DNA of 63,986 nucleotides, counting the filler, from Sanchytrium tribonematis (taxonomy: Eukaryota), in assembly GCA_018985235.1 (NCBI GenBank). It is 9 parts of 9 records of this genome, joined end to end, with 100 filler letters (N's around TTAATTAATTAA, not from the genome) between each part and the next. Parts side by side here need not be neighbours in the genome. Positions count along the whole stretch, not along the records: positions 1 to 7,230 come from JADGIG010000453.1; positions 7,331 to 14,555 come from JADGIG010000454.1; positions 14,656 to 21,876 come from JADGIG010000455.1; positions 21,977 to 29,192 come from JADGIG010000456.1; positions 29,293 to 36,495 come from JADGIG010000457.1; positions 36,596 to 43,793 come from JADGIG010000458.1; positions 43,894 to 51,071 come from JADGIG010000459.1; 2 more parts are not named here. One strand, 5' to 3'. Of this stretch, positions 108 to 49,834 are shown in pieces (the first letter of the stretch is position 1; the number at the start of each line of letters is the position of its first letter). Below the pieces are notes generated by a model, which saw only the letters and a list, made by a program, of their open reading frames with translations, ran no database searches and was not told where the DNA came from. Made by a program: the position numbers and the translations under genes.

Positions 108-917
108 TTACAGTTCATCTTTACTTTCTGATTTTGGCGCTGATTTCGATGTCCCTTTATATTTTGTCAACCACTTTTTCAAATCGTCATACTTTTTCAA
201 ATCGCCGTCATATTTAGCAACTTTTAGATCTCGCTTTTGAATCACCAACTGACTAGGAATCACGACAAGACCTTTGCCAAATTCACCTATTAAAGTTTTG
301 TCGCAACTAACGGCAAAGTCTATTCTTTTGGTGAATTCTAATGACAAACATTTCAACGTTGAGGTTACCTTACAATTCTCATTCAACAATATAGCTTTTG
401 ACAAAGTGCTGTTTTTTTCCGAAAAAAACTCATTCAGCTCAGTAAGCAGCCACTTCTTGTCATTTATCAAATCAGGCTTAACTTCAGAATATACTCGCTT
501 GACATTATCACTCAAATGGGAAGTGATAAACTTTGTCAGAGCATCTGTGGATCTCTCTCCATTATAGTCCACGCTGATTCGCTTTTTCTTGTTTTCTTTG
601 TAAATCGTCTTCCAAATTTTGAGCGTAGGAAACCCTTGTACTCCAAATTGACCGCAAATACTTTTATGCTCGTCGCAATCAATAGCTGCGAGTTTAATAC
701 ACTTTGAATTTCTCGCTACCGTTTCATATGTAGGCTTCAAGTTCTTACAATGTCCACACCTAAAAATTAACAAACGTTACCATGGAGCGTAAAATTCCAT
801 TAGAACTGGCACTGGAGATTTTTTAATTAATTTATCAATATTCGCAGGATTGACCTTGAGTACTGGGCTTCCAGGGTCATACATTGAAAAAACAATGAAG
901 AGGTTCAACAAAATCAT
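108..917 (-). CDS. Protein disulfide isomerase family (Mpd1/PDIA6-like), two exons
   Basis: ATG at 917 gives MILLNLFIVFSMYDPGSPV...EFYAP. Removing the 21-nt intron 760-780 restores the WCGHC active site. GFPTLK thioredoxin motif and C-terminal KDEL. Confidence 0.9.
760..780 (-). other. 21-nt spliceosomal intron
   Basis: GTAACGTTTGTTAATTTTTAG. Splicing gives APW-CGHC; the unspliced frame hits TAA immediately. Confidence 0.9.
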
Positions 918-942
918 GTTTAAAAAATTAATAAAATCTCCT

Positions 943-3698
943 TTATTGTAAGATTTCTAACATAAATGTTTTAAACATGTCAAAGTACCCAATTTCTTGT
1001 GATTTCATTTGAACTAAAACTTTTCCATCTTTTACTTGCAGTGAAGCTGTAATGAATGCATCGGTATAAGTCTGTAACAAAGCATTTACAACCTAAATGA
1101 GTGAAAATATACATTGTTTTTGACAAAAGTTGCCAACTGTGTAGCCGCTAATATCTCTTGTAGTTTTTGGATAGAATGTTTACAAGGCTCCTCAAACTGA
1201 ACAGTTTGCAAAGCAGTGTTTTTCACAATTTCATCCCACAATTTTTCAGCTTGCAGTTGAGGCTCAAATGTTGCAACGGTGAAAGGAACTTTACTCTCAC
1301 CGAAATATACCCCAAGATTGTTCTTAATTGCAATCTGAACAGAGGGAAACGGCTGAGTAGGTTGGTACATGCTTTCTGGATGAAATGTCAAGGGTAAATC
1401 TACAGTTGCAGATTGCTGTGGTTGTACTTGGTTGATATCTAATAAGGCAGCAGGAACGATTCCGAAGCTGTTCTTATTAAATTGAATCGCAAAGTCAGAA
1501 AATGCTTGATTACTAGAATTTTTAAATTGCAATCTTAAATAAACACTGTCGTTATTCCTATGATATTTATAAGCAACTCCCATTCCGTTGGCACCATTTT
1601 CAGAAATGAGAGGCTTCAATGTTAGTTGCTGATCTAGAACCTTTAATGAAGAGCGCCTTCCAGCATTTTGAACAGGGGATGTACTAGGCGAGAGGATTTC
1701 AGATGCGACTGGCCCAGGCCCAAAAGATTCTAAAAGATCTAAAACTCCGCCAGAAGCCGCTTTTTGAGAGTCAGATGGTGGTGGTAAATCTAGATCCAAT
1801 AAATTTTGATCATTGTCATCGTCAAATTGTGTTGATATTTGACGGATGGGTGCTGCATCATTGGCCAAAAATTCAGTTTTTCTCACGTGAAACAAAGACA
1901 CTAGTGTTGACAGCTCCATAATAATATCTTTTAAAAATATAGGATCAACTTTCCATTGCTCAGCGGTTTCATCAATTTTATCTTTCTTTGTCCAAACTAT
2001 CTCGCGAGTTTTCTCCGGGTTGACGCTGAGAAGTCTCCAGTAAATAAAAGCCCTATCTCTTATATCAGGGTGTTGACATTTTTCTGTTGCAGATTCAAGG
2101 ACAGTTTGAAGGAATCCCTGAATTTTTGGATCATTAGGACGCTTCAGAAAACACTTTACTATGGCAACCAAGATAGCCAATTGCACAGATGCATTTGGCT
2201 CCTCTACAAATCCAGATAGCAAATTTTCCAATACATCATATATGCCATTCACAAATCCAGGAAACTCTCCAATGAGCCATACAACTGCTTCTTTTCCACT
2301 TAAGCCATCAGTCTGTCTTAAATATGGTGCTATGAATTCGACGCTTTTATCAAACTGGCCGGGGTATTTTCTGATGATATTTCTCAATGCTTTGATTGAA
2401 TCTGAGCAAACATAATCAATTTTAGTTTTCAGTAATTCTAATAAAGCATTAACGCACCTTTCGGAAGTATTTGGAAATTTCAAAGCAATACACTCAAAGC
2501 TATAAATGGCTTCTCCTACAAATTCAATATCGACTTCGCTTGCATATTCTTTTAATTCTGTTAAAACACTCTCGATACTCTCATCATTAGCTAGCTTTCG
2601 TAACAAAGAAAGTTTTTCTAATTTGACATACGGAGGATCGTTGTACTTGACAAAAAAGGGCCTCAAGTCCCCGTTTAATAGTGTGGGGAATTGCTCAACA
2701 ATAACGTGCATATTTCTTAAAAATGAAAAAATAAGTTCTGGGACATTTGTTGATAACAATGTAACTAAAGGCCCTTTTAATTTTTTCAGCATATTGTCGG
2801 TAAATTCTTTCTGAGATGTATCCTTTTGCAAGAACAAAAGTGAAATTATAATAAGTCTTATCGCTGTAAGAACCACTGAAGGATTTTGATGCTGCAATCG
2901 AGCAGAGACTTTTTCACTAATTATTGTGGCCTCCTCAGTATTAGCGATTGTGTGGTAATCGCACAAACTCTCCATTATAACAATTTGACCCCATTCAGTA
3001 CATTCATTTAAAGCATTCAGTAATTTTGACAAAGCCTGGGAATTGATATTTAAATTGACAACTTCAATATTTTTGGCTTTGCTCTTACTTCTCATTTCAT
3101 GCAAAGAGGCAATTGCGTTTGCAATTACCATTGGATTCTCATCTTGCAACAAATTTTCAACTGTTTCCACGAACCCAAACTCTACACATTGGGATGGTGA
3201 TAAATCATACATTTTTGCAACACACATTGCTGCCGTTTTTCTTACATATGGGTCAGGGTCTTGTAGTCCCTTTCTAAGTGGCTCGAATAGGTAGTCTACA
3301 ATCTTCTCAGACCGTAAGCAGCCCATAGTTCGTATAGCCAGTGCCCGAATTAGAGGATTTAGATCTTCTGCATCTTTAACAAAGGTATTGACAGCCAAAA
3401 TTACAAGCTCAGGTTGCGTTTTGGCATAATTCATTAAATATAAATAAACCAACTTCTTCAATTCTAGGTCGTCAGTCTGCATACATTTTAATACGTCGGC
3501 AAAGAGCTCTGATACATTTTTGCCAACTGTCATTGATGCAATAACTCTTTTTACAGCTTCCTTACGAATACTCTTATATTCCGAATTCAAGTCGTTTTTC
3601 AATTCAAAGTTCTCACCTTTTTTGCTCTTGAAATATTTTTGGTTTTTATTAAAGTATCGGTCCACCGCGCCTTCAATTGATGAAGCGAAATTTGACAT
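943..3698 (-). CDS. AP-1/AP-2 adaptor complex beta subunit (beta-adaptin), two exons
   Basis: ELKKLVYLYLMNYAK, NPLIRALAIRTMGCL, DIRDRAFIYWRLLS and an appendage domain. Removing intron 1093-1112 extends the ORF (VVNALLQTY...LEILQ*) to a stop at 943. Confidence 0.93.
1093..1112 (-). other. 20-nt spliceosomal intron
   Basis: GTATATTTTCACTCATTTAG. Removal adds 49 in-frame codons ending CAA TAA AG. Confidence 0.8.
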
Positions 3699-3838
3699 GT
3701 TTCAATTCGGAACTCCTTCTAATTTATGTCGAGTAAACCTTAATATCTAAAACACTGACAAGATAAATTGCGTTTTTAATCTCTGTATAGTATCACTAGA
3801 TTTGGAAAGACAGACCTATTCTTGAAACATTTTACAAG

Positions 3839-6800
3839 ATGGAAAAAGAAAACCCAGAACTAGATAACAATTATGCTATCGGAGATCTGCTTGGTAAAGG
3901 AGCATTTGGAAGTGTTTATAAAGGCCTTAACTTGTCAACAGGAGAAATAGTTGCTATTAAACAAATAAGATTAACCAATACACCGAAAGCTCAACTGAAT
4001 TCAATGATGATGGAAATAGACTTGTTGAAAAAATTAAATCATAAGCACATTGTACGATATATCGGTTTCTTCAAAACGAAAGAGCACTTGAATATTCTGA
4101 TTGAATTCTGTGAATCAGGATCGTTGATACATCTACTCAAAAAGTTTGGACATTTTACTGAAAAGCTTGTAGGTATGTATACCTCGCAGGTTCTTGAGGG
4201 TTTAAAGTACTTACATGATCAAGGTGTTATACACAGAGATATTAAGGCTGCAAATTTATTAACCGATAAACAAGGGGTTGTCAAGTTAGCTGATTTTGGT
4301 ATTGCGTCAACCACTAATGGTGATCAAGAAGTAGCTGGGTCACCCTATTGGATGGCACCCGAAATTGTTGAATTAAACGGTGCGACAACTGCAAGTGATA
4401 TTTGGAGCTTGGGTTCTACTGTGATTGAGCTGCTGACTGGTAATCCGCCTTACATAGAACATTCTGCAATGTCTGCATTATTTCGTATAGTTCAAGATGA
4501 TTGCCCACCATTGCCACCACAAGCTTCGGAGATTGTTAAGGACTTCTTACAGCAATGTTTCCAGAAAGATCCAAACTTGAGAGTCACTGCACAAAAACTT
4601 ATGAAGCATCCTTGGATGGTACAATCAAGAAGAAAAGACCTAGATATCACTCCAGTCGTGCCAAAAAACATCATTCCTTCAATTTCAAAGTTGGAGAAAC
4701 GAATCAGCACTGGAAATGATCTCAAAATTAATTCCTCATTGTCAAAATACTCTGAGGAAGTTGAAGATAATTGGGCTAACAATTTTGAAATTAATTTGGC
4801 TATCTCTATCGGAAACGACAACACGCATCTTAAATCCAATCCGATTGAAGAAGATTACGATGATTTTTTTGACCAAAAACCAAGCAATATTAAACCAGCA
4901 ATTCGAAAGATGACATTACCTGGCTTACCAATATCTAATGAAGGAACAAAAAAAATCGAGATGCAGAAATTTATAGAACAAAATGAATTGGACGACTTTT
5001 TTGAAGAGAACTCAACTCCGAATGAAATTGCTCTCAATTCTCCTGAATTTGACGTTGACAAATGGGAAGAAAGTGTAGATGAACAAGCCGAAAGTGGTGG
5101 ACTTGAATTGACAAAATCAATTAAACAAGTGGTTGGTCGAAGAAAGCAAAAAAGGCATGTGAACTCACTTTTTAAGCAATCAAATTCTTTTGCGAGTGAA
5201 AGGCCTCTAAGTGGACTCGATAGCTTTACAGAGAATGAAACAGACGATTTCAGTGACATCGTCAGCCCAAAATTGACAAACTCTTCATTGAGGCTAAAAC
5301 AAGCTATTTCGTTTGATGACGAGGAAGAAGAAGACCCATTTCTGATAAGCGATAATGAAGAGAATCAAGATTTTAGTGACTATGCATTAAAAGACATAAA
5401 GGCAAAAAACTTGTCTGAACTCATGAAGAGTCTTGACAGATTACTTCCAGGGGTTGAAATTTCTGAAGTCCATGTCGCTTCTAAAAACGTTCTTGACCTT
5501 ATCACGCTCGATCCAGAACTAAAGAAAACGGTTGTAGGTTATCACGGCATGATACCAATTATAGAGCTACTAAGTTCGTCAATTGAAAATGAATCCATTG
5601 AAACTCTATTGAAAGTTATAAATTCAATTGCAGTAGAGAGTCCTGATATATTAGAGAATATCTGTCTAGTAGGTGCAATTCCAATAGTCTTAAAGTTCAG
5701 CTCAAACGATTATCCTTCCTGTTTACTAAAAGAGGTGGCAAAATTCATCAACTTGCTTAACCTGACAAAGCCAACCCTTCAAATGTTTGTTATAAGTAAT
5801 GGTTTTAAGGTTTTAATAACAATGCTTCAAATCAAAGAAGATCATGAAATTATATTTATAGCGATAGACGCCATTAGAAATATTTTCGATTTACCAATGA
5901 AATCGATAAAAAATGATTTATGTAGAATGTTTATAAAATACCAAATCTTGACTCTGTTAATTGACTCTCTATATTTTACCATCAGGTTTCGAGGAAGCGA
6001 ATCTGTAGAATACAGTCAAAAAATTCTAAATATATTTGTTTTATTTTCACAGTCTGACATTACAGTCAAAAGATCATTTTCAGATCCGAAAATTATTCAT
6101 GGTAATACAACCTCATCTAGAGCTTTTAAAATCAATGGATTATGTCCCTGCTCATCTTCAAGTGACTATTTTGAAAGTCATTAAGAATTTATCAATGGAC
6201 AGTAATAATTTGGATAATCTAGAGAAATCTGGGTGCATAGAAAAACTATGTAAATTAATTTCCATTGAAAATGGCCCATATATCACTGAAATTAAAAACC
6301 AGTGCTTAAACGCATTGTTCTACCTATGTAGAATTAACAAACGGAGGCAAGAGTACGCATGCCAATATTCTTTGAAGTCTTTATTAGATGCCGCAAAAGC
6401 AAATTCCACATTCAAGCAGTTTGCTTTACCAATTCTCTCTGAATTTCCCACAAATAGGTTTTGCAAGAAGTATCTTAATAATGAATATACTGTCAAAAGA
6501 TATATGGAATTTCTTGAAGATTCAAATTGGGTGGTCAATATTTTAGAAGCTATTGTAAGTTGGTGCAATGAGGATCTATACATATTAGAAGAACCTTTGA
6601 TTAAAAGTATTGGTAGAATTGCAAATGCTCTCGTTTCCACAAGAGGTCAATATTTTGTTGGGCTTCTGGATTCAATTCTGAAGCTTTGTCAAATAAGCGA
6701 GAAAATTTCGAATGAAATTTCGAAAAGTTCAGAAATGATACGGATTTTACTTGAAAAAGTCATTACCCAAAAAAAACCTATTGCCAGAGTAAAAATTTTG

Positions 6801-6947
6801 AAAATTGTGGCAGAACTAGCACAACCAAGATTTAATGCTTCAATTTCCACATCCCAATTAGAAAGATTAGAGCAATTGGGGAGAAATGATAGCGCAGTGC
6901 TTGTCAAAGAGCTCTGTCATCAAATTATCGAAAATAAAGCCGTTTGA
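3839..6947 (+). CDS. STE-family kinase, Cdc15/S. pombe Cdc7/SepH-like, with C-terminal ARM-like repeats; two exons
   Basis: GKGAFG, HRDIKAAN, DFG, GSPYWMAPE, SALFRIVQD. ORFs 3839-6184 and 6036-6947 are joined in frame by intron 6102-6120 (KIIH-E-LLKSM). Confidence 0.85.
6102..6120 (+). other. 19-nt spliceosomal intron
   Basis: GTAATACAACCTCATCTAG, phase 1; it joins the two overlapping ORFs. Confidence 0.85.
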
Positions 6948-6997
6948 ATTTGAAAATAATCGGGCATTTAATATAAATTATTTTTTTAGGCACAATT

Positions 6998-7230
6998 ATG
7001 CGAAACATGAAGTCCCTGTTTTTCAAGCATTTTGGATCTCCGAAATCAGTTATATCTTACGGCAATGTGGCGAAGCCAAAAATTGATGACGACGAACTGC
7101 TAATTAAAATGATTGCTTCCCCTATTAATCCGTCCGATGTCAATTCAATTGAAGGTGTTTATCCTTCAAAACCATTGCAGATTAATGATCAATACTTTCC
7201 TGGAAACGAGGGGTGTGGTGAAGTAGTAGA
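6998..7230 (+). CDS. ETR1: Mitochondrial trans-2-enoyl thioester reductase (MECR/Etr1), 5' part, cut by contig end
   Basis: ASPINPSDVNSIEGVYP...PGNEGCGEV, the N-terminal motifs of this medium-chain reductase family. Confidence 0.8.
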
Positions 7231-7330
7231 NNNNNNNNNNNNNNNNNNNNNNNNNNNNNNNNNNNNNNNNNNNNTTAATTAATTAANNNNNNNNNNNNNN
7301 NNNNNNNNNNNNNNNNNNNNNNNNNNNNNN
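7231..7330. other. Artificial contig spacer
   Basis: 44 N + TTAATTAATTAA (stops in all frames) + 44 N; identical at eight positions. Confidence 0.97.
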
Positions 7331-7362
7331 CAATATTCGTAAAAGCACTACAATAATTCAAA

Positions 7363-8125: not shown

Positions 8126-8253
8126 GTTGATATGGCATCTATTTCAATTTAAATGACAAACGAGGTACAAAATGGGACACAAATGATGTTGTAATCCAAT
8201 TGACAAATGAAATGCAACCAATTCAATCACAAATAAACACCATCAATCACTAT

Positions 8254-9207: not shown

Positions 9208-9250
9208 GGAGTGTCTTGAAAAATATTGCAAATTTGAAAATTAAAATTAT

Positions 9251-12809: not shown

Positions 12810-12909
12810 TTGATCATCAAATCACTCTGCTTCTATTTGTAATAAATGCGGATCCTTGGAATTGATTTGATTGGTTTTAAAGCTCTGTAAAATCTAAAAC
12901 ACAGACACA

Positions 12910-13696
12910 TTACTCCAATGGGATGCATCTAAATTCCAATGTTGTTCTTTCTGTTGGATCATCATTAAGTTTTATGGCCCCATGTGCTATTTGAGATGAT
13001 TTGAAAAATAAGACACTTCCTGATGGCATATCCTTGTAATAATACGCATTATATGCACCACCAGCAAGTAATCTATGATCATTTTGAACAGGTTCACTCA
13101 GTTGCTTCTTATTGTTCAAAATGAAACCCAGAGGGTAGTTTTTAACTGGATGATGGCTTAAATTGATCCATACATTAAATAATTGATTTTTAGCAAATGC
13201 TGCTTCATAATTATGCTTTTCATCATCAAATCCATGTCTACGATACTGGCGATCTATTACTCTCATATCTGTATGGAAGAAAATAGTGGCTTTTTTTGAT
13301 TTGGGTCTATATTTCGCATCCATACACTTCACTTTTATTTTAAATAATGTTTTGTACCATATATCTGCCATAATATATAATTTTGTGTCTGTGGCAAGAA
13401 GTTGATAGTCATGCAAACGGTGCCTATCTTTTATTGTAAATGATATCTGAATTTTCAAGATTTGATTTAATCTCTGATACTTGTGAATCACTTAATAAGC
13501 CGATTCTTGCCTCTACATCATGTTTCTGCAATGTTAACGCATTCATTTCGCATTGAAATAGTTGTAAATGGTATTGTATTTTTTGTTTATCGTATGACCT
13601 GTTATATTCGTGAGTTAATTGATCAGTCTTTACACATTTGGATGGTTCTTTGTGTGGTAAAAACGATAAAAAAGCAGCAAATGATCCAAATTTCAT
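12910..13696 (-). CDS. CmcJ/NvfI/AsaB-like putative oxygenase with one apparent frameshift
   Basis: FFHTD, FNVWINL..PVKNYPLG, YYYKDMP..VLFFK, HGAI, RTTLEFR. ORFs 13424-13696 and 12910-13491 join if one A is removed from AATAAAAGAT (~13430). Confidence 0.6.
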
Positions 13697-16876: not shown

Positions 16877-18703
16877 TTGATACTAAAGGCTTTTAATATT
16901 GAAAATCTTATTGAATTAGAATGGATCAAAGAAGGAATTGAGTTGAAAATTGAAAATATCGGATTTAAGCAATTAAGAGACGTTCTAATGGATGCTTGTC
17001 ATTCTGCATCAAAAGGAGATATTACTTATGATACTTCTAGATATGAGTTGATTTACCCAGATTTGATGCCATCTTGTTTTGTCAAGATAGATAATATCAA
17101 GGATTACTGTGTAGGTTTCAAGACCATCAAGTTATACAAGGGTGCAATTAATAGCTCTATCCATCTCAAATGCCACATATGCTCACCTGAGAACCTTACA
17201 GCTTTACGTTCTGCTGTAAAAGACAAAGGCCACATTGTGAATGCAAAAATTGTTCAAGCACACTCTCATTTTGGTGAATCCAATATTTCGTTCCCAAGAT
17301 TGCCACACATCAACGTAAATGAGACATCGACTTTAGTAGAGGGTCTTCATTATGCAGATTTTTCAGATCCTGATTTATATTTGAAGTACGTGCAAGAATT
17401 GGCTGAATCATTTGTAAAAGAGTTAAACAAGAGTTCTTTACATCTAATCCGTTTAAATGTGGAGAGATTCTACGATTCGATTTATACACATGCATGGACT
17501 TGGCTAACCACGAGCAAAGTTTTTCAAAATTTTTTAAAAAAAGAACGGCCAAATTTATTTGAGCAATCTTTTGCCGCCCTAAAAGCAGGAGTAAACTACG
17601 GAATTGTGTGTGGACCAATGGTTACCCATGACTTAGCAGAAGATTTTCTTGTTTTTATTACCAAGGAGATTCTTTCCAGCTTTAAATTGGTCGAACCTTT
17701 ACAAGAGATCAAAATAATTAGAAGACTAGACACATTTAATATACAGACTTCTTGTGATGCCTCAATTGTACGCAATGTAGTAGAAGATGTATTGGATGAG
17801 TTCAATTTAAGTCTTCGTCGACAAAGAAACGCACCAGATAACAAGGTCCAATTGAAGGAATACTTGAACTGTAGTGAGATCGAGAAATACAGTCCTGGAT
17901 TTATTGACGAATATGATTCTGATCTTGTGGCCTTATTAATGTACAAGAAAGCCAGAGAATCCAACTACAACAAAGAGGATGTTGAATTTGTTGTAGATAT
18001 CATAGCGAGGGTGGCTGAAATCATCCCGATTGTATGCGAAATACTAGTTGATGATTATCAATCCTTTAAATATGCCAAAGTTCGTCCAAATATGGATTTG
18101 CTATTATTAAGGCTGTTACAACGATATATCCAGATTGATTGTAATTCATTGCAGTATATGCATCTAATATGGGCAGCAATGTGTTGTGACATTCATAAAG
18201 ACGACAAATTGTTTAAAAAATCGCCGAATAAGATGCCAAGTCTTCTACTGCATGATATAATGACTAAAACAAGAAACGAGAAGATAACTGATATATCTAC
18301 ACTAGACTTGATGTATAAGAAGGATCTGAATGAGTTTTATACTAGCCAATTATGTAATATTATGCTTCACTCATTAAAGCTGCATAGATTGTTAAAAGTA
18401 GCTGTTATTGGAAGTAAAAACGCTGAATTGTTTGCAGATCACTTTCAAAAAGCAGCCAAATGTACAGTTGATGTATTGGAAGCATCAAGAGATATTAAAA
18501 AGTATGATTATGTGATTAAACAAACAGATGGTGCATCATTTACCAGAAATAAAGATGGAATCTTTGTTGACTTTAATAAATGGAAAGAGGCTGTGGAATT
18601 GAAGACATTTCAAGAGTTTATAAAAGAGCTACGAGGTACTTGTTATCGAGGAATCTTATGCAAATGGCAAATCAGCAATACATCCCATCCATCCGCTGTT
18701 TAG
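16877..18703 (+). CDS. Abi/DRT-type (SIYTH class) reverse-transcriptase-like protein with altered catalytic motifs; first ATG at 16988
   Basis: LNVERFYDSIYTHAWTW, YGIVCGPMVTHDLAEDFL, RRLDTF at the YxDD position, then a helical region containing YMHLIWAA. Confidence 0.72.
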   Translation: MILKAFNIENLIELEWIKEGIELKIENIGFKQLRDVLMDACHSASKGDITYDTSRYELIYPDLMPSCFVKIDNIKDYCVGFKTIKLYKGAINSSIHLKCHICSPENLTALRSAVKDKGHIVNAKIVQAHSHFGESNISFPRLPHINVNETSTLVEGLHYADFSDPDLYLKYVQELAESFVKELNKSSLHLIRLNVERFYDSIYTHAWTWLTTSKVFQNFLKKERPNLFEQSFAALKAGVNYGIVCGPMVTHDLAEDFLVFITKEILSSFKLVEPLQEIKIIRRLDTFNIQTSCDASIVRNVVEDVLDEFNLSLRRQRNAPDNKVQLKEYLNCSEIEKYSPGFIDEYDSDLVALLMYKKARESNYNKEDVEFVVDIIARVAEIIPIVCEILVDDYQSFKYAKVRPNMDLLLLRLLQRYIQIDCNSLQYMHLIWAAMCCDIHKDDKLFKKSPNKMPSLLLHDIMTKTRNEKITDISTLDLMYKKDLNEFYTSQLCNIMLHSLKLHRLLKVAVIGSKNAELFADHFQKAAKCTVDVLEASRDIKKYDYVIKQTDGASFTRNKDGIFVDFNKWKEAVELKTFQEFIKELRGTCYRGILCKWQISNTSHPSAV

Positions 18704-18763
18704 ATTTTGACTATTAGACATCAAGTTTGGTGAGAAAGGATTTTTACTCAGGACACGATTTTA

Positions 18764-26200: not shown

Positions 26201-26401
26201 CGCTTTAGTAAGATATCTTGGAATGAATGTGTTGAGTTAACTATCTGCTTTTCCGATACAGGTTTTAAAGAAATTTATTAGTTTTAAATTGGTATTTGAT
26301 ATCTGGCTGAAATTGAATCAGATGTGGTGTATCTGCGACAGTTGATTTGTGGTTGAGGAATTTATTATCTTATTCATCGAAAGCGCAAAGTAAAAGGTGA
26401 A

Positions 26402-28362
26402 ATGGTTTTATATTCTGCTCACTGGATTTCAAATTGTCTATCTTCTGTGAGAGAACTTTACATTCAAAATTTATTAAGAGATCCGTCTAATATTGATTTA
26501 GATGTCAAAACTATAAATATAAGAACTGCCAATATAAAGCAGGCACTTGAAAGTCACAATCTTAAAAGGGTAATTGATGATAAGAAAAATTATAAATCTA
26601 AAGATGATTTCTTATTTGATGAGTCATATAATCATAGTGAACACTTATCTATTATAAAATATTGTTGGAATCATTTCAAATATCCATCAGTTGGTCTAAA
26701 TATCTTGCTGATCATTTACTTGCCCATGCTGGTTTACATCGTGGGGATGAAAGAAGGGAATTCAAATTGAGTAATTGTCGTATTTTGGATACTAAAATTG
26801 ATAATTTGGATGTAAAAGCTCTGATTATAGTCATTGAGCGGTCAAAAACAAATAATTACAAAAGAATTGAACATTCAAGTTTTATTCGCCATATGAATCC
26901 AATCGAATGCCCTGTTGGCGCCATGGCGCTGTTTCTTTTTTTTAGATTTAATTTCACAGACGAAAACTTCCCCAATGTTCATGTCAAGCAAGATTGGTAC
27001 GATATTTTTCTTTTGTTTGGTGATAAAGGCATTAAATCTAAGCTAGATTATTCATCACATTTAAAAACTGTAACAAAAATCCTGAAAGAATGTAATATTG
27101 ATAGTGGGAAATGCAAAACTCATTTGCAGAGGAAATCAGGTGTTAGAATGCTTGATGAAATGAATTGCAGGGAAGACCATGTTGATAGACTGGGTGGATG
27201 GAAACACGATAAGAAGACCACCAGCTATTTACTAAATATTGCTACTGAAGCTATGAAATTAATGAGTGGAGGAAGTAAAATTCAAGGCAGTTATCAAATT
27301 TATAGAGACGCATTCATCCCATCACTTAATTTGCAACAATTGGTCTTCCCTGGCGCATTCAAATATGATTTGTCGGATCCAATGCTAGAAAAGACTGCTG
27401 TAAATTTCATAAACTTGATGAAATATTTAGCAATAGTAGTACTTCAGGATGCAGCAATACTTATAAATAATGAGGATATTAAGTCACATGCAATTTTTAA
27501 ATGTGATTTATTCAGATCAAACGAATTTATCGAGTTTTCAAAATTGGTAAATGACCATCATAGAACAATGAGTAGCCGCCCACTGAATGAAGTAAGCACA
27601 TTAGCAGAGGTATCACCTGATATCTGTCAAATGCTGTCTAGCCAGCATCATTATTTTAGCAGGATTTTATCAGAACAGGCAGAATTAAAAAATCAAATAT
27701 TTCAATTAAATCAGCAACTGCATCAGTTTTACTCATTTCAGATATGTCAACCTATTTTAGCATCGTTTGTTAATCCCCAAATGTCTATCAATCATCAAAA
27801 TTACCACCCAAATACACCAAATTATTCCCCTCAAATTAATCCCAAATTTGTCTCCATTCAGTCAAGTAACCTTTCTACTGTGTCATCTCTGCGTAATTAT
27901 GTAAGACAAGCATCCTATCAGTCAACTTCTAGCCAAAAGTCATCACCAGATTCTGCAATTAGCAACATAAACCAATCTCATTTGGAAGAAGAAAAACACG
28001 CATATAGACTCAATAACGAGACCAAATGTCTCAAAAAGCTATGTGTGGAATACTATGATGGTACCCTACAATGCCCTGCATATAGTTCCTTAGAGAAACA
28101 ATTTAAATCTGAATGGCGGCGAGGTTCTAATAGTTCTGACTCTGCTAAAAATAGACAATTTTGGAAGGGAAGATTAGATTGCATCAAAGAAATAGAACGT
28201 CTAGAAGTATCTACTGGTCTATCTCGACATGCTGTGGTTGAAATGATAGTCAAATTTAAAGACGGTATTGAAATTGCTAAAAAATCAGCAACTATCCCAT
28301 GGCTCATTAAATATATGAAAAATAACAAAGATAAAAGCACTAGGACCTATGGATTTGCTTAA
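26402..28362 (+). mobile_element. Crypton-type tyrosine recombinase (Ndc10-II-like plus GCR1_C domains); 5'-truncated with one frameshift
   Basis: LHRGDE, RHMNPIECPVGAMALFLFFRF, KTHLQR, RLGGW, SYL; C-terminal EYYDG...LEKQFKSEWR. The two ORFs join by one missing A at ~26700 (VGL-KYLADH). Confidence 0.8.
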
Positions 28363-32308: not shown

Positions 32309-33469
32309 TTATTCCTTGTTAATCACAATGGCAGTTGCTGCGCCCCCTCCGTTGCAAATGCTGGCAACTCCAAATCCATTTTTCATTCCGTGGACAAGTG
32401 TAGTGAGAATCCTAGCACCAGAAGCACCTATTGGATGTCCCAAACTCACTGCTCCTCCTAAAGGATTCACTTTATTCAAATCAATTTTCATTTTTTGGGC
32501 ATTTGCCAAAACCACGCAACTGAATGCCTCGTTTATTTCCCAATGATTGACATCATTTACAGAGATATTAGCACGTTTTAATGCAATCGGAGTGGCTACA
32601 GATGGCGCAATTGGGAAATCAATGGGTTTTACAGCCCCATCAGAATATCCCACAATTTCTGCCAATGGCTTTAATTGATGGGTTTTAACAAAAGATTCGG
32701 ATGCTAATATCAATGCTGCTGCACCGTCATTCAATTTGGAGGCATTTGCTGCAGTAATCGTGCCATTTTAAATAAATGCAGATTTTAAAGAATCCATTTT
32801 ATCAGGTCTAAAATTGGATATTTCTTCATCTTCAGTGATTTTGGAGGTTCCTTTTCTACTATTAATCTCTACTGGTGCTATTTCTGCCTCAAATTTGTGA
32901 TTTTTGGTGGCTGAAATGGATTTTTGGTAACTTTGTTTTGCATAATCATCCTGGTCTTTTCTGCTGATTTGCATTTCTTTAGAGATATTCTCTCCACAAA
33001 TACCCATGTGATGGTGATCAAATGCGTCTGTTAATCCATCTTCTAAAACCCCATCTATTATTTTATTTTGATTTCCGTAATTTAATTGTCGTGGGATATA
33101 AAATGGCACATTGGACATGGATTCCATTCCACCAACTAAAACAACTTGTCGGATGCCCAACTGAATCTGCTGGGCGCCAAGGGTGACTGATTTCAAGCCA
33201 GAAGCGCAGACTTTATTGATTGTCGTTGCTTCTGTTGATGCAGGACATTTGGATTTCAACACAACTTGTCTGGCTGGTGCTTGTTTGTTGTTTGCGGTCA
33301 AAACATTCCCAAAATAGCAATCTTGGATTTCATTTGGGGATATTTTAGCAGAATCAATGGCTGATGTAGCAGCAATCGTACCTAATTCGACTGCTGATTT
33401 GGATGATAATTTGCCTTGAAAGCTGCCAATTGGAGTTCGTTTAGCGGATAATATAAAAACACGCTGCAT
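32309..33469 (-). CDS. Acetyl-CoA acetyltransferase (thiolase II, ERG10/ACAT1-like) with an in-frame TAA at 32768-32770
   Basis: RTPIGSF, INKVCASG, GGMESMSN, LKSAFI*NGTITAANAS, EINEAF, GHPIGASG, CNGGG; both halves are in the same frame. Confidence 0.88.
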
Positions 33470-41552: not shown

Positions 41553-41695
41553 TTCAAATTACGTAGTTTCACATAGATCTCCACGCTTCTAAAAGACCAC
41601 AATTATCTTTATCATTTGCTACTTATAAACATTACTACAGCGGCGTAAACAAAATGTGACGGCAAAAGAAAATCCAATGGATTTAAGTTGAAACA

Positions 41696-42589: not shown

Positions 42590-42633
42590 TAAATTATTGT
42601 TTACATTATTTAATCTTTTCTAAAGAGCTCTGA

Positions 42634-43793: not shown

Positions 43794-43893
43794 NNNNNNN
43801 NNNNNNNNNNNNNNNNNNNNNNNNNNNNNNNNNNNNNTTAATTAATTAANNNNNNNNNNNNNNNNNNNNNNNNNNNNNNNNNNNNNNNNNNNN
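43794..43893. other. Artificial contig spacer
   Basis: N44-TTAATTAATTAA-N44. Confidence 0.97.
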
Positions 43894-44298
43894 AATAATA
43901 GCCATAGAGCAATTAATCGTAATGACCTGGGCCATAATCTAATGTCTTGTCAAAACATTACTTTGGAGAGTCCAGCTTGTAAGCCCAAAGCTATTGAAAA
44001 CACCGATGTACTAGTTGTTTATGCATTCAAAAATATGAAAAATTATTCCCTTCGAGTAAAAAAGCAGTACAAATTTAATTATCTGATTTATGTGAGTGAT
44101 TATTACGACTCAAAATTTAATCATTTTCTAAACAACATATTTACACCACTTCATGAAGCACCACCAAAAAATATTGACAACAACTATTACAAAAGCATTT
44201 ATAAATCCCTTCAAGTTAATTTAAGACCGAAGCACTACTTTTTAACCTTGAAATGTTTTCGCAGACTTGACAAATCTGTGCACGAAGATAAAATTTAG
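43894..44298 (+). CDS. Unknown protein, probable 3' fragment
   Basis: Open frame near the contig start, ending in TAG followed by AATAAA. Confidence 0.35.
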   Translation, partial: NNSHRAINRNDLGHNLMSCQNITLESPACKPKAIENTDVLVVYAFKNMKNYSLRVKKQYKFNYLIYVSDYYDSKFNHFLNNIFTPLHEAPPKNIDNNYYKSIYKSLQVNLRPKHYFLTLKCFRRLDKSVHEDKI

Positions 44299-44307
44299 CA
44301 AATAAAT

Positions 44308-45168
44308 TTATTTTAGGCTGTATTTAACAACAGTTCCTTCCTCAGAGGCGCAAACAGCTATTCCATTTTCAATATTTATACCACGGATCACTTCTAAATG
44401 AGCTGTTGTCGCCATTTTAATGGGCAAAAGAGAATCTTCTTGTATAGCAAAAATTCCTACAAAATATTCTTCATTGAATTCTAAACAGCAATAAAGATTG
44501 TCTCCATCAAAATCTATTATAGAGTGGAAACAATAATCATTAAATTTGTAGCTGGAAAGGGAACCAAAGTCGATACATTTTTCACCTTGCAAATTCCAGA
44601 TAGAAAATTGATTCATATCTGTTACCACATACAAATAGTTCCCAAATATTTTTGCGTACTGAATTGATACTTCTACATTACAAGTAATAAATTCAGATAA
44701 ATGCTCATCTATTGTATCTTCATCAAATCCCTGAAATTGCAGCAACTCTTCAATCTGCATTATATTAATTGTTCCATCGGTGGATGCACTAGTTAAGATA
44801 TTATTAGACATGCTTAAGTGGGAAATATCATTTCCATGCAAATAAAAAGATATAATTTCTTTGAGATTGTGAAATATTTTAAGCATGCCCATTTCATATC
44901 CCACTATAATGTAATCCAAATAATGACAAACACAAATCATTTTGCTACTTTCAATTATCGGACTGAGAGTATCTTCTAATGCGTAAATAATTGAATTAGA
45001 TATTAAAATTTTACCACTCCAATCAATAATTTCAGCTACTTGAGAGTGAATTATGTTGAGATCAAAATCCAAGAGAGTCAAACGATCTCCAATAAGAAGA
45101 TATCCCAAGTCTACTCGCTGTATTCCACGAATAAACTGTGAAGTAGAAACACAATTGCGAATCTCCAT
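44308..45168 (-). CDS. WD40-repeat protein (possibly WDR89-like)
   Basis: HGNDISHL...LTSASTDGTINI, FSIWN, HLEVIRGI...ASEEGTV. Confidence 0.65.
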   Translation of the reverse strand: MEIRNCVSTSQFIRGIQRVDLGYLLIGDRLTLLDFDLNIIHSQVAEIIDWSGKILISNSIIYALEDTLSPIIESSKMICVCHYLDYIIVGYEMGMLKIFHNLKEIISFYLHGNDISHLSMSNNILTSASTDGTINIMQIEELLQFQGFDEDTIDEHLSEFITCNVEVSIQYAKIFGNYLYVVTDMNQFSIWNLQGEKCIDFGSLSSYKFNDYCFHSIIDFDGDNLYCCLEFNEEYFVGIFAIQEDSLLPIKMATTAHLEVIRGINIENGIAVCASEEGTVVKYSLK

Positions 45169-45183
45169 GTGTAAGTCCCTTAT

Positions 45184-47509
45184 TTATTTGTGAATTGTCG
45201 CAACTAATTTGTCAATATCAGCATCCGAATCAAACGAAAGGGAAGTGAAAATATCCATAGTCCTTTCGATCTTGTCAGTATTTTGACAAATATCTAATTT
45301 GATACTAGTCTTATTTTTTAAGGCATCAAAAAATAATTTTGCCTTTTCAAGAAATAAAGTTGGCATCTCAGCATTTGCAGCACATTCTATTCCATAAGAG
45401 CCGTCAGCAAATCCACTCTCCAGCTCATACATGTAAGTTAATGTACCGTCTTCGTGCTTCAAAGTTGACATTTTATAAAATGTAATATTTAAATTTTTCA
45501 GAAACTTGTGTGCTTCAAGATGATGCGTGATAGCAAACACAAGAGACACTTCCGATCGGTCTTGCAAGTATTTCAAAGTGCTACTAAGCAAGCCAATACC
45601 ATCCTGATTTCTCGTGCCTTTTCCAAATTCATCCATAAGCAGAAGAGAATCTTTTGAATTTTTAATCGCATAGCTTATCTGCTGCAAATCAATCATAAAG
45701 CTAGACTTTTGCCGAGAAATTGTTTCAACGCTTTTGATTCTTGTCAAGATACGTTTAAATATCCCAATTGTACAAGTATCGCAAGGAACGAAGCTCCCTG
45801 CCTGTGCCATTACGGCAAGCATCCCAATTTGCTTTAGTAAAATTGACTTTCCACTATTATTTGGCCCAGTTATCAGAAAACATGCATGTGAGTCCTTAGT
45901 CGAGAATTTGTTTTTCACGAATTGATGGAGACACATTTCTTGAAGAATATGCCTGCCTCCGGTGAAAGATATTTCTGGATCCTCAACAATTTCTGGCTTA
46001 GTTAAATTGTATCGCTTTGCGGATTCCGTCAAACTAACCAGCGCATCAATTATACCGCAACATTTTTCTGCCTTAAACAGTAATGTTTGAAATTCTCTCA
46101 CAAATTTAATTAATTCGTAAAGAAATTCAATTTCTTTTTCAACTAGCATCTTTTGAATATCCCCAATTTCATTATCCATACTTAACATCAATTCATTCTT
46201 AAAATATAGTTTATGTTCCGATTTAAATTGAAATTCCCATTCTGCTTTTTCCAAAATCTCTTCGTCTGGTGCAACGTCATTTTCAAAGCTAAGGCAAGTC
46301 AGAAACCCAACTTGCGGCAAATATATAACATTGAGTGTCTCTGCTGTGGGATACATCTCACTCAAGGAAACTGTTGATAAAATCTTCTCGCTTGCATTAG
46401 TCAAATCTGAAGAGATGAAATCGTACTTTTTCCTTAAGTAGTCTAACTCGTCATCCAGACCAAGTTTTAGGCTTATTCGGCCTTCCAACTCACTCTTATC
46501 AAAATCTACAACCTGCTTTATCGTGGCACAAATTTCTCTAAGAGATTGGAGATCAAATTCTTGATTTAAAAGCAACAATGAGCATTCTGGATTTCCAACA
46601 CTCATTTCACATAAAACTTGATGAATTTTAAATATATTCTCGCAAAACTATATTAATTTGTGATACATTCAACAGACATTTCCACTCATAGTGAGAAGAA
46701 CTGGGAGTTATGTCATCCATGACTTTCCGAGGGCTTTTAAAGGCCAACAACCTTAACAATCTCTTGCTCAAAGATTCATTTCTAGGCAAGAGCATCTCCT
46801 GAATAGCTTTCTGTCTATTCTCTATAATTCCAATGTCAGTACTTGGCATGCTAAACCATTGCCTCAAAGTCCTGTAGCCTATTTTCGATTTTGTAAAGTT
46901 CATAATTCCGAAAAGAGTAAGGCCTTCTTTGCTACTTTTCATGCTTTGATTTGGGTGGCTTTCAATCTCAAAAATATCCAAAGAAAGATAGGCATCTTCA
47001 TTCAATAGCATGACATCATCAACATCACTAAAAATAATTTCGGATATTTCTGCATCATGGCCTAAACTTGTCAGGTATCCCAAAACCACGTTGAAGCAGC
47101 AATAAATCAAATATTGGCCATCGGATATAATCTGGTCAATTTCAATTTCAGACTTGTTAAAATGTTTAGCAATTTGGCGTTTGCCATGTTCCGCGTTAAA
47201 CTCCATGCTTGGCCTTAATTCAAATGGAATTTGTCTCATTTCACAAATCTCCATTTCCTTGTTACTCTTTGAGTTTAACAGAATATTTGCTGGTTCATAA
47301 TATGTGACTACTCTGTCAAAACTGTCATCAGCAACACATCGATCAGCAACAATGTGAAATTCATTTTCTACCAAACAACACATTGCATAATTTTTTTGAT
47401 CAGTAAAGAAACTCATTATTTTATGAATTTTGGGTTGTTGGTCTGAAAGTTTAGCTTGAGCAGCATTTTGTGAGACTTGTGAGTATTCAGAGCTTGGCAT
47501 GAATGTCAT
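45184..47509 (-). CDS. MSH5: MutS homologue 5 (meiotic), two exons
   Basis: SKEGLTLFGIMN, YLPQVGFL, GPNNSGKS, SSFMIDLQQ, LMDEFGKGT, SYGIECA; joined by intron 46648-46666. Confidence 0.88.
46648..46666 (-). other. 19-nt spliceosomal intron
   Basis: GTATCACAAATTAATATAG; removal gives CLLN-FCENIFKIHQVLCEMSVG in frame. Confidence 0.87.
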
Positions 47510-47639
47510 TGTGTTTCATCTAATTCGTGACAATTCGTTGAGAGTGAGCAATGAGTTGAAATAAATCAAGTGGTTTGATAATAATACTTTAAAAATGATA
47601 ATGACGGAACAATGGGGTAAATAATGAACCATAATAGAT

Positions 47640-47972
47640 TTATTCGATATTTATTTTCTTGTGAAATTCTGGATTTTTGCCAATCTTCAATTGTAGCACT
47701 CCATTTTCATATTTCGCTTCAATCAAATCCTTGTTCACATCATTTGGCAATCTGTATGCCTTTTCAAGTTCTCTGTTATCATTCTTTGCATCTACATGCA
47801 ATACATCATCTTTGATTTCAATTGAGATGTCTTCCTTTCTAAATCCTGGTGCGTCCATGAAAATTTCATAATCTCCCTCGTTTTCCTTAATTTCGGTGTT
47901 TGGAGTATATCTTTTGTTGTTGAGAGTATAGAAGTTTCTTGGCTCGTAGTAATTGACTCTGCAGCAGCTCAT
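47640..47972 (-). CDS. Small heat-shock protein (Hsp20/alpha-crystallin)
   Basis: DAPGFRKEDISIE, YRLPNDV..IEAKYENGVL; ATG at 47972. Confidence 0.9.
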   Translation of the reverse strand: MSCCRVNYYEPRNFYTLNNKRYTPNTEIKENEGDYEIFMDAPGFRKEDISIEIKDDVLHVDAKNDNRELEKAYRLPNDVNKDLIEAKYENGVLQLKIGKNPEFHKKINIE

Positions 47973-47994
47973 TGTATTACAAATGAATAGCGCA

Positions 47995-48045
47995 CTTTTA
48001 TACCTAATGGAATTTTCCAGCCTTTTCTGATTGGGGTTCTCGAAT
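47995..48045 (-). promoter_or_regulatory. Hsp20 promoter: TATA box, heat-shock elements and CCAAT box
   Basis: TATAAAAG at 48002-47995; GGAATTTTCC (48009-48018) and GTTCTCGAAT (48036-48045) match inverted nGAAn repeats; CCAATCAG lies between them. Confidence 0.7.
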
Positions 48046-48145
48046 AATCGGGTTGAGTAAGGAACCAAAGTCAATGTGTGATGTGGAATCATGCCACAAA
48101 ATTACAAATTTCAGTTCAGTGTAATTTTTTCTTTGAAACGGGATC

Positions 48146-48331
48146 ATGGATTCAACTTTTACAAACAGGGAAAATGTCGAATTACTTAACAAAATATCTC
48201 AAATACTGAATACAGGATTAGACCAAGAAACTTTGGTCAAATGTATTGAACTTCTTCAAGGTGGTGCAGATCCATTTGCATTAGCAGCGGTTATGAAAGA
48301 ATTGAGACAACTCAGTGCAAAGGAGCAATAA
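48146..48331 (+). CDS. MZT1: Mitotic spindle organizing protein 1 (MOZART1)
   Basis: ISQILNTGLDQETLVKCIELLQGGADPFALAAVMKELR. Confidence 0.88.
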   Translation: MDSTFTNRENVELLNKISQILNTGLDQETLVKCIELLQGGADPFALAAVMKELRQLSAKEQ

Positions 48332-48333
48332 AT

Positions 48334-49048
48334 TTATTTACTTAATATTATTAAAAATCCTAGAATAAAATAGAACAAAAAAATGGGATACACCTTAATA
48401 AGAAGAAAATACTGCTAATAATCTTTTTTCCTGTAAACTATCAATAGACAAAAATCCGATAGAGGACCAGACTGACCAGGCAAGTGCAATCCCCACTACA
48501 ATCATTCTAATAAATATAATTTTTATAATGAAGCAAACAACAGCTGCAATTAGAAGCGGAAATAAGCAGTATCCGAGTACACAAACGGATTGTAAAATAC
48601 TGATTTTGCCACCTAATAATTTAGCATTCAAGGTAACAACAATAGAACCTAACCATACTACTGCAAAAGTGGTTGAGAAGACAAGAGGCATTTGATCTCC
48701 AGTATTTTCTGCACTTAATACAATTGCCAAAGTCAAACATAATAATAAAGGACCCCATAAATCCCAGTTTTTGAGTAAGTCTTCATCATTTGCGACTGGC
48801 ACGATCACTTTTTTCATCTTCCGCCAAACATTTTCCAAGTCCCTTTTAATAGTAACAGAGACTGGTTCATCTAAGGTATCCCAATTTTGCGTTTGAACCG
48901 GTGCTGATTGTTGCGGTCGGGGTGAATGAGCAGTTGAAGGTTGCGGTTTGGTAGGTGACTGTCTAGAGTTTGAGGATGGTATACTGCTTGCAGCGTTTAA
49001 TATTTGTAATTCCTCTGCTGTTAAATCTTGAGAGAGTGGAGTTTGCAT
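48334..49048 (-). CDS. Yip1-family protein (YIPF6/Yip4-like), two exons
   Basis: TLDEPV..TIKRDL, WDLWGPL, QSVCVLGYC; removing the intron gives LLAVYPIFLFYF. Confidence 0.88.
48394..48412 (-). other. 19-nt spliceosomal intron
   Basis: GTATTTTCTTCTTATTAAG; restores the conserved LAVYP.FLFY. Confidence 0.9.
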
Positions 49049-49080
49049 CAGATTTAATTCTCCTTGAAAAAGTATAAATT

Positions 49081-49834
49081 TTACTGAGTAGAAGCTGCCT
49101 TTTTAGCTGCTAAATCAGCTTCCTTTTGACTTTCAATATCTTTGACAGCAAGCTCTAAGTGTTCCTGTTCAACATGAGATATTTTACCATCTTTTAGCAT
49201 TACTACTTCGATATTTTGACTTCCACTTTGGACCACTTCAAGTAAACCTTTAAGGCATAAAACCAGAGCTTCTTCATCTGTCAAATCATCTTTATAAAAT
49301 TTTTCTAAATATTCTTTCACTGAGTTGGCATTTCTGCCGATTGCAGAGGCTTTCCATTCCGAGCAAACTCCCTAAATTAAATTGTTTTACACTTGGGTCG
49401 GTTTGGTATAATTTGGGATCCGTATCCTTACCAATAAACAAAGCGCTAATTCCAAATGGGCGCTTGCCCCCACTTTGAGTATACTTTTGTTGGATTTGAG
49501 CAACATGTTTGGCTAGATATTCAGTCGTTGGAGCATCATCCAAGGTCAGCCTATAACTTTGAGCTTCAACTCTGGCTTGATCAATTAATACTCTAGCATC
49601 TGCACTCAGACCAGCAAATGCACAAGCCACATGTCGGTCGATGTAAAGAATCTTCTTAATTGTTCTTGGGTTTTGCAAATTTAAAACAGATTTCTTTTCA
49701 ACAGCTAAAATTGCGATAGTTTTGGTACGAAGTCCAACAACTAAATTTCCCTTTTTCACTGCTTCATTTGCGTAGTCTACTTGAAATAACTTTCCGTCTG
49801 GACTGAAGATAGACAATGCACGATCGTAAGCCAT
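49081..49834 (-). CDS. PRE6: 20S proteasome subunit alpha-4 (PSMA7), two exons
   Basis: [30 protein letters not shown]; spliced junction reads [18 protein letters not shown]. Confidence 0.93.
49372..49390 (-). other. 19-nt spliceosomal intron
   Basis: GTAAAACAATTTAATTTAG; restores TDPSG..EWKA.AIGR. Confidence 0.92.

What the first reader, a model, noticed from the sequence alone, without database searches (positions are those of the whole stretch)
760..49390. Spliceosomal introns of only 19-21 nt with a fused branch-point/3' splice site
Seen: all six introns I can define from protein conservation or ORF joining are tiny: 760-780 (21 nt), 1093-1112 (20), 6102-6120, 46648-46666, 48394-48412 and 49372-49390 (19 each). 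All start GTA and end WAG. They carry YTNAT, whose A sits 6 nt from the 3' end in five introns (8 nt in the 21-mer). Five are non-3n, and the only 3n intron has an in-frame TAA, so retention would always disrupt the protein. Established: introns this short are known from chlorarachniophyte nucleomorphs and some ciliates; typical fungal introns are several times longer. Inference: an independently evolved minimal-intron spliceosome in a fungus-like nucleus, which default gene finders would miss.
Basis: partly seen in the sequence, partly recalled or inferred. Interest (0 to 1): 0.85.

Follow-up and report, generated by a model that had tools for sequence, protein, structure and literature searches.

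The report
Tiny 19-base introns in sanchytrid fungi
Six genes of this fungus, placed by its proteins with the sanchytrid parasites of algae, are interrupted by inserts of only 19-21 bases that carry standard splice signals and are likely cut out by the spliceosome, which would make them shorter than any fungal intron I found described and would mean public protein sets for these fungi hold truncated genes.

Summary
Confirmed, short of RNA. All six segments lie at the stated coordinates (19, 19, 19, 19, 20, 21 nt; GTA...YTNAT...WAG). For five, protein homology picks or fits exactly this excision; the YIP one rests on ORF joining. The organism is a sanchytrid fungus close to Amoeboradix gromovi. 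Independent test: relatives' unspliced proteins break at the same codons, and 8 of 10 read-through tails back-translate to 19-21-nt introns with the branch A at -6 (about 2-3.5% by chance each); length varies 19/20/21 at one site, which argues strongly against sequencing error or frameshifting. The MutS-gene intron sits at a position shared with distant eukaryotes, so these are likely shrunken ancestral introns. The published sanchytrid proteomes were predicted without any intron model; I found no report of these introns. Caveats: no RNA seen; 'fused' holds for 5 of 6; the spliceosome is not shown to be minimal. Tiny introns are known in ciliates, mikrocytids and nucleomorphs; this is a new fungal case. 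The scan noted 26-30-nt introns in Rozella before (unchecked), none in sanchytrids.

The parts
108..917 (-). PDI-family gene (Mpd1/PDIA6-like): exon 1 781-917, exon 2 108-759; 262 aa if spliced
   Evidence: Pfam Thioredoxin; PDB colinearity
760..780 (-). Intron, 21 nt, phase 2, splits the Trp codon before the active-site CxxC; in-frame TAA; branch-like A at -8
   Evidence: Exon 1 residue 45 aligns to residue 45 and exon 2 residue 1 to residue 47 of 3ed3 and 2dml; same one-residue gap in 9wzm and 3idv
943..3698 (-). AP-1/AP-2 beta adaptin gene: exon 1 1113-3698, exon 2 943-1092; 911 aa if spliced
1093..1112 (-). Intron, 20 nt, phase 0, A at -6
   Evidence: Best of 94 candidates but by a small margin (117.8 vs 116.0; unspliced 111.1); four relatives break at the same place
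3839..6947 (+). Cdc15/SepH-like kinase gene: exon 1 3839-6101, exon 2 6121-6947; 1029 aa if spliced
6102..6120 (+). Intron, 19 nt, phase 1, A at -6
   Evidence: Top GT-AG excision against P0244, P0247, P0248 (P0249 uninformative); relatives show 20- and 21-nt versions at this site
45184..47509 (-).
   Evidence: Pfam MutS_III and MutS_V
46648..46666 (-). Intron, 19 nt, phase 0, A at -6, at a position shared with distant eukaryotes
   Evidence: Best of 123 GT-AG excisions, 193.2 vs 182.5 bits; best 1-nt deletion 172.1; 14 of 17 vs 7 of 93
48334..49048 (-). Yip1-family gene: exon 1 48413-49048, exon 2 48334-48393; 231 aa if spliced
48394..48412 (-). Intron, 19 nt, phase 0, A at -6, ends AAG; the least tested of the six
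   Evidence: ORF joining adds a hydrophobic 19-aa C-terminus; no homology test succeeded
49081..49834 (-). Proteasome alpha-4 (PRE6) gene: exon 1 49391-49834, exon 2 49081-49371; 244 aa if spliced
   Evidence: Pfam profile 1-126 in exon 1 and 127-187 in exon 2
49372..49390 (-). Intron, 19 nt, phase 0, A at -6
   Evidence: Best of 534 candidate edits (367.0 vs 354.0 next GT-AG, 355.9 best 1-nt deletion); three relatives break at the same codon

Best explanation
These six 19-21-base inserts sit in conserved genes of a sanchytrid fungus, carry GTA, a branch-like YTNAT and a WAG end, and are likely ancestral major-type (U2) introns that shrank to near the physical minimum and are still removed by the spliceosome. 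Shown: their sequence, that removal restores frame and homology, and that relatives have inserts of matching design at the same codons. Inferred mechanism: intron definition across one short stretch. U1 (then U6) reads a donor cut down to GTA; BBP/U2 read YTNAT and bulge the A at position 14-16, giving a 14-16-nt lariat loop; there is no room for a pyrimidine tract, and the AG three bases past the branch pentamer's A is taken by proximity. At that spacing yeast needs no Slu7, Prp18 or Prp22 for the second step (PMC3392075, passage), so selection on Slu7/Prp18 would be relaxed. A deletion bias in a compact parasite genome would push length down until donor and branch helices collide, leaving a 19-21-nt band.
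For: Homology-selected boundaries in PRE6, MutS, kinase, adaptin and PDI genes. Independent test on relatives: 8 of 10 read-through tails fit a 19-21-nt GT..YTNAY.HAG intron with A at -6, null 2.2-2.5% per tail, 3.3-3.5% among tails long enough; in five tails (P0001, P0002, P0124, P0126, P0244) the bases after the inferred AG can decode to a close match of the window's exon 2. One site is 19 nt here, 20 in A. gromovi (P0246) and 21 in P0244. Two close MutS relatives lack the insert cleanly. Distant MutS-family ORFs that end within 45 aa of this site have Val (GTN) exactly there in 14 of 17, against 7 of 93 that continue. Core spliceosome and debranching enzyme annotated in A. gromovi. Same GTA/A(-6) design in Stentor.
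Against: No RNA was seen, so splicing and the branch nucleotide are not observed. Relatives' introns are inferred from protein tails, not read as DNA; the rows are kin and cover three genes only. The YIP intron has no homology test, and the adaptin margin is 1.8 bits over a 41-nt alternative. Against P0244 a 1-nt deletion outscored the 19-nt excision (1666 vs 1650), as expected if P0244 keeps its own insert. The PDI intron has its A at -8. Two of ten tails do not fit 19-21 nt (P0125 stops after two codons; P0245 fits only 15 nt). Six introns on 64 kb cannot give the genome's length distribution.
Confidence: 0.88

Rival explanations
1. The introns are real but the picture is narrower than it looks: these six are the short tail of a mixed length distribution, or are poorly spliced as in microsporidia, or one or two (YIP, adaptin) use other sites.
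For: Short E. cuniculi introns splice at under 20% and V. culicis at a median 25%. Adaptin margin small.
Against: All six here and all eight informative tails in relatives fall at 19-21 nt; no Pfam-supported split in the window needed a longer intron; essential genes such as PRE6 need full-length product.
Confidence: 0.07
2. The breaks are assembly or amplification errors, or pseudogene lesions, and the splice-like motifs are chance in AT-rich DNA.
For: The motif occurs by chance (345 matches over lengths 12-60). A thiolase gene in the window has a bare in-frame TAA with no insert, so lesions or errors do occur.
Against: Whole 19-21-nt inserts, not 1-2-nt slips, give the best fit to outside homologs; separately assembled relatives break at the same codons with different insert sequences.
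Confidence: 0.02
3. The inserts stay in the mRNA and are bypassed in translation by programmed frameshifting, readthrough or ribosome hopping.
For: A 1-nt shift restores the downstream frame at the 19-nt sites.
Against: One site would need +1, +2 and 0 shifts in different relatives; the inserted peptide would land in the PDI active site and in a region with no insertion in 107 of 118 PRE6 homologs matched by the pattern; what is conserved is GT, the -6 A and AG, not a slippery site.
Confidence: 0.015
4. The inserts are cut by a non-spliceosomal nuclease/ligase route like the about-20-nt HAC1/XBP1 introns of fungi (recalled).
For: Similar length (recalled; PMC2606855 seen only as a search listing).
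Against: No paired stem-loops at the junctions; folds are weak and unlike one another (-2.1 to -10.1 kcal/mol); GT-AG ends, branch motif and a shared spliceosomal position.
Confidence: 0.015

Closest known systems
Stentor coeruleus (heterotrich ciliate) 15-16-nt introns (PMC9505925, passages)
   Same: GTA donor, AU-rich body, branch A six from the end leaving a 5-nt tail, largely complete spliceosome
   Different: Here 19-21 nt with a 14-16-nt loop rather than 10-11; a recognisable YTNAY branch motif; a compact, intron-poor fungal parasite genome
Chlorarachniophyte nucleomorph introns, 18-21 nt (PMC10245619 section 7)
   Same: Length band almost identical
   Different: Those are in a remnant endosymbiont nucleus and dense (over 800 in about 300 genes); here a main fungal nucleus with at least 6 in 51 ORFs of 100 aa or more
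Mikrocytos mackini 16-17-nt introns (PMC10245619 section 7)
   Same: Parasite, narrow size band, housekeeping genes
   Different: Mikrocytid introns are highly conserved in sequence and the spliceosome has 17-19 proteins; here the body is degenerate and many factors are retained in the relative
Microsporidian short introns, about 25 nt in Encephalitozoon cuniculi (PMC6349667, passages)
   Same: Fungal-side parasite, short GT-AG introns
   Different: Longer, mostly in ribosomal protein genes near the 5' end, poorly spliced; here 19-21 nt, mid-gene or 3', in varied genes, in a lineage sister to Blastocladiomycota (PMC8371127 abstract passage)
Fixed branch-to-AG spacing of Yarrowia lipolytica, Trichomonas and Giardia (PMC2483917, passages)
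   Same: No pyrimidine tract; the 2-nt spacing of Yarrowia equals the A at -6 seen here
   Different: Those have a strong branch consensus, and Yarrowia's introns are long; here the consensus is loose and the whole intron is tiny
Myxobolid and dicyemid introns, median 22-27 nt (PMC13644364, parts 1-2 of 3)
   Same: Parasites, donor reduced to GTa, positions conserved, U2AF kept
   Different: Animals; longer; branch A drifts with length rather than staying at -6

Membership tests
Major (U2-type) spliceosomal intron | GT...AG ends | tested here: met
   6 of 6
Major (U2-type) spliceosomal intron | Branch-point-like adenosine near the 3' end | tested here: met
   YTNAT in 6 of 6; compatible in 8 of 10 relatives' tails; sequence only
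Major (U2-type) spliceosomal intron | Exact removal restores the conserved protein | tested here: met
   5 of 6 by homology; YIP by ORF joining only
Major (U2-type) spliceosomal intron | Position shared with introns of other eukaryotes | tested here: met
   MutS gene only: 14 of 17 vs 7 of 93; the other five sites not tested this way
Major (U2-type) spliceosomal intron | Spliceosome encoded in the genome | tested here: inconclusive
   Core proteins listed for the relative A. gromovi; this genome not held; no Rfam hit in the window; snRNAs not examined
Major (U2-type) spliceosomal intron | Spliced mRNA and lariat intermediate | not testable with these tools
   No RNA run listed
Minor (U12-type) intron | Extended conserved donor and branch consensus (recalled) | tested here: not met
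   Only GTA is shared at the donor; positions 4-6 vary
Fixed branch-to-AG introns (Yarrowia/Trichomonas/Giardia type) | Constant branch-to-AG distance without pyrimidine tract | tested here: met
   A at -6 in 5 of 6 and in 8 tails; one at -8
Fixed branch-to-AG introns (Yarrowia/Trichomonas/Giardia type) | Strong, near-invariant branch consensus | tested here: not met
   TTAAT, CTCAT and CTTAT all occur
Highly reduced spliceosomes (microsporidia, mikrocytids) | Loss of most spliceosomal proteins | tested here: inconclusive
   Many factors retained in the relative; Slu7, Prp18, Yju2 not found by name and Slu7, Prp18, U1C not by recalled KO number, but Luc7 was missed by KO and found by name, so absence is weak
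HAC1/XBP1-type non-spliceosomal introns | Stem-loop at each junction (recalled) | tested here: not met
Sanchytriomycota (host lineage) | Proteins group with Amoeboradix gromovi | tested here: met
   91% (PRE6), 66% (adaptin), 68% (kinase region) to named A. gromovi proteins, far above other fungi; clade 100/100 in a 29-row tree

The most novel reading that the evidence does not exclude
Sanchytriomycota as a whole splice almost only 19-21-nt introns (possibly down to 15 nt in one relative), the shortest in Fungi, using a near-complete spliceosome that has dropped the distance-dependent second-step factors Slu7 and Prp18 because the AG always lies within a few bases of the branch point; and part of the reported gene loss in this phylum reflects genes cut up by unseen introns.
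Probability: 0.3. Interest if true: 0.82.

Novelty: new member of a known kind. Interest (0 to 1): 0.66.

Why it matters
It adds a fungal lineage to the short list (heterotrich ciliates, mikrocytids, chlorarachniophyte nucleomorphs, some parasitic animals) that reached near-minimal introns, at lengths below the roughly 25 nt of microsporidia. Convergence on GTA plus a branch A at -6 in a fungus and in Stentor points to a structural floor set by the spliceosome. A fungus is close enough to yeast that its Prp8, Cwc25, Isy1, U2AF and snRNAs can be compared residue by residue, and a 19-nt intron can be put in a yeast reporter, which makes the minimal-lariat question testable. Practically, the sanchytrid proteomes used in phylogenomics and gene-loss studies were predicted with TransDecoder on genomic contigs and hold truncated proteins, so they need re-annotation.

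Tried and rejected
No whole genome held. RNA: no RNA holder listed for 45500-50500; not evidence either way, and no reads could be laid. Sanchytrid DNA sought with the PRE6 alignment: 54 metagenome loci, none above 76% identity and none sanchytrid-like (11 of them inspected have no intron at this site); none in viral contigs. Rfam: no hit in the window. YIP exon 2 could not be tested: no PDB match, no Pfam match to the short piece, the Atlas gave only the family. Hidden in-frame introns: alignments of adaptin (first 760 aa, 8 rows) and kinase (first 700 aa, 4 rows) showed no 6-7-residue insert with the motif (read by eye). Extra candidates 53369-53388, 12894-12913 and 18698-18717 extend ORFs but lack the full motif; 53369-53388 has no Pfam support; not counted. 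No earlier notes on this genome. PMC4435813 passages gave no intron lengths; Amphiamblys has no introns; PMC3809491 not held.
Full report
OBSERVATION. The six segments are present as described. All begin GTA and end TAG (five) or AAG (one). A YTNAT pentamer has its A at -6 in five and -8 in the 21-mer; from the 5' end the A is at 14 in five and 15 in one. The motif alone proves little: a relaxed version occurs 345 times over lengths 12-60, and 10 of 861 GT..AG stretches of 19-21 nt carry the strict form, six being the claimed ones (post hoc). The window is nine joined contigs, 29-38% GC per 2 kb, with 51 ORFs of 100 aa or more covering about 49 kb, so at least 0.12 introns per coding kb.

HOMOLOGY, GENE BY GENE. 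PRE6: of 534 candidate edits scored on a profile of 118 non-sanchytrid homologs, the 19-nt excision is best (367.0 bits; next GT-AG 354.0; best 1-nt deletion 355.9), and it gives the spacing found in 107 of 118 homologs; the other 11 missed the pattern, mostly through substitutions, one through an insertion. MutS gene: best of 123 GT-AG excisions on a 97-row profile (193.2; next 182.5; best 1-nt deletion 172.1), and colinear with two close relatives that have no insert. Kinase: top GT-AG excision among 231 candidates against P0244, P0247 and P0248, ahead of 1-nt deletions for the two outside homologs (434 vs 427; 443 vs 434) but behind one for P0244 (1650 vs 1666); P0249 lacks the region. PDI: exon 1 ends at residue 45 and exon 2 starts at residue 47 of 3ed3 and 2dml, leaving exactly the split Trp codon. 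Adaptin: best of 94 but narrowly (117.8 vs 116.0; unspliced 111.1). YIP: ORF joining only; its resemblance to the last helix of Yip4/YIPF6 proteins is my recall and untested.

WHOSE DNA. Nearest named proteins are from Amoeboradix gromovi (EukProt; 91%, 66% and 68%), a sanchytrid. The window's adaptin, the A. gromovi one and three unnamed ones form a clade at 100/100 on a long branch in a 29-row tree (rows picked from 120 hits; its place beside Blastocladiomycota is not strongly supported there). The organism is thus a sanchytrid other than A. gromovi.

INDEPENDENT TEST. Public sanchytrid proteins were called without splicing, so they read into the intron. Ten such tails were available (three PRE6, four adaptin, three kinase). 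Each starts at the same codon as in the window. Asking which lengths from 12 to 45 admit GT...YTNAY.HAG with A at -6 gave 19, 19, 21 (PRE6), 19, 19, 19 (adaptin; one of them also 13, and with 8 of 9 positions visible) and 21, 20 (kinase): 8 of 10. P0125 stops after two codons; P0245 fits only 15. Random AT-rich tails fit 19-21 in 2.2-2.5% of 20,000 trials (3.3-3.5% if long enough). In five tails the bases past the inferred AG can decode to a close match of the window's exon 2 (a best-case back-translation). P0244 is full length with a 7-residue insertion that outside homologs lack: a stop-free 21-nt version. One site at 19, 20 and 21 nt in three genomes is hard to explain by error or frameshifting. 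The rows are related and these are inferences from protein, not DNA.

ORIGIN. Among 152 MutS-family domain rows, 110 had the conserved Trp aligned. Of 17 that end within 45 residues after the site, 14 have Val exactly at the first post-junction residue, the mark of a GT donor read through; of 93 that continue, 7 do (Fisher p 3.5e-10, rows not independent). So this position is an intron in distant eukaryotes: a shrunken old intron, lost in two close relatives, not a new insertion. The other five sites were not tested this way.

MECHANISM. Shown: signals, frame restoration, conservation of design. From the literature: U2 pairing bulges the branch A and U6 takes the donor (PMC9505925, passages); Slu7, Prp18 and Prp22 are not needed for step two when branch site and 3' site are under 7 nt apart (PMC3392075, passages). 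Inferred: intron-defined splicing with a 14-16-nt loop and a 5-nt tail, AG chosen by proximity. The supplement of PMC8371127 (file 4, searched by term; cut when stored, but the second sheet begins within it, so the A. gromovi sheet seems whole) lists Prp8, SF3B1, U2AF35, U2AF65, BBP, U1-70K, Luc7, Prp16, Prp17, Prp22, Cwc25, Isy1 and Dbr1; Slu7, Prp18 and Yju2 gave no hit by name, and Slu7, Prp18 and U1C none by KO numbers I recalled. Only 3757 of 7220 proteins are annotated and Luc7 was missed by KO, so these absences are a lead only.

WHAT IS KNOWN. Introns of 15-16 nt (heterotrichs), 16-17 (mikrocytids) and 18-21 (nucleomorph) are described (PMC10245619 section 7); 22-27 nt medians in myxobolids (PMC13644364, parts 1-2); about 25 nt in E. 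cuniculi (PMC6349667, passages). Fixed branch-to-AG spacing is known from Yarrowia, Trichomonas and Giardia (PMC2483917, passages). A fungal survey's passages mention no lengths this short (PMC8476143). Unchecked notes of this scan give 26-30 nt for Rozella. For sanchytrids, searches on 'sanchytri'+'intron', 'Amoeboradix'+'intron', 'Sanchytriomycota'+'splic', 'Sanchytrium'+'genome' and short-intron phrases (most hits seen as listings only) showed no report; in the genome paper's main text 'intron' occurs only in a reference title and 'splic' not at all, and proteins were predicted with TransDecoder on contigs (section 18). Its main supplementary PDF was too large to read, and subscription journals are not searched, so a mention elsewhere is possible. 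'Shortest in fungi' holds only against what I read.

VERDICT. Real and most likely spliceosomal (0.88). It works like the tiny introns of Stentor and nucleomorphs, is a member of the major U2 class on every feature testable here, and appears to be a new, fungal instance. Interest 0.66: surprising for fungal and splicing specialists, with a direct effect on how a phylum's genomes are annotated, but convergent on a known kind and awaiting RNA.

Noticed in passing
window 32312-33469 (-), stop at 32768-32770: Thiolase gene interrupted by a single in-frame TAA with no inserted bases (Pfam positions 233 then 237); the truncated 233-aa form is in the public collection. Nonsense mutation, sequencing error or readthrough.
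   Followed up: partly
A. gromovi annotation rows 1135-1136: The branch-point-binding protein BBP/SF1 appears as two adjacent ORFs on one contig, as expected if it is itself split by an unannotated tiny intron.
   Followed up: no
P0245 (unnamed relative), kinase intron site: Its tail fits only a 15-nt intron with an in-frame stop (8 of 9 motif positions visible); it may equally be a stop inside a longer intron.
   Followed up: partly
window 53369-53388 (-): 20-nt GT-AG segment with A at -6 but C at -8 that would join a 41-aa and a 199-aa frame; possible seventh intron, no homology support.
   Followed up: partly
window 58438-63699 (-): Long uninterrupted Ty3/gypsy-type gag-pol frame (protease, RT, RNase H, integrase domains).
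   Followed up: no
window 26357-28359 (+): NDC10_II plus GCR1_C domain protein preceded by an overlapping frame in another phase; no intron motif picked up at the overlap. Possibly transposon-derived (recalled).
   Followed up: partly
window 45184-47509 and 50255-51070: MSH5-like and Spo11-like genes on one contig, suggesting a meiotic toolkit.
   Followed up: no
window 917-943: The spliced adaptin gene would end only about 25 nt before the PDI start codon: extreme compaction.
   Followed up: no
whole window: Nine contigs of about 7.2 kb in descending length, joined by N runs with a stop-codon spacer; adjacency across spacers has no meaning.
   Followed up: yes
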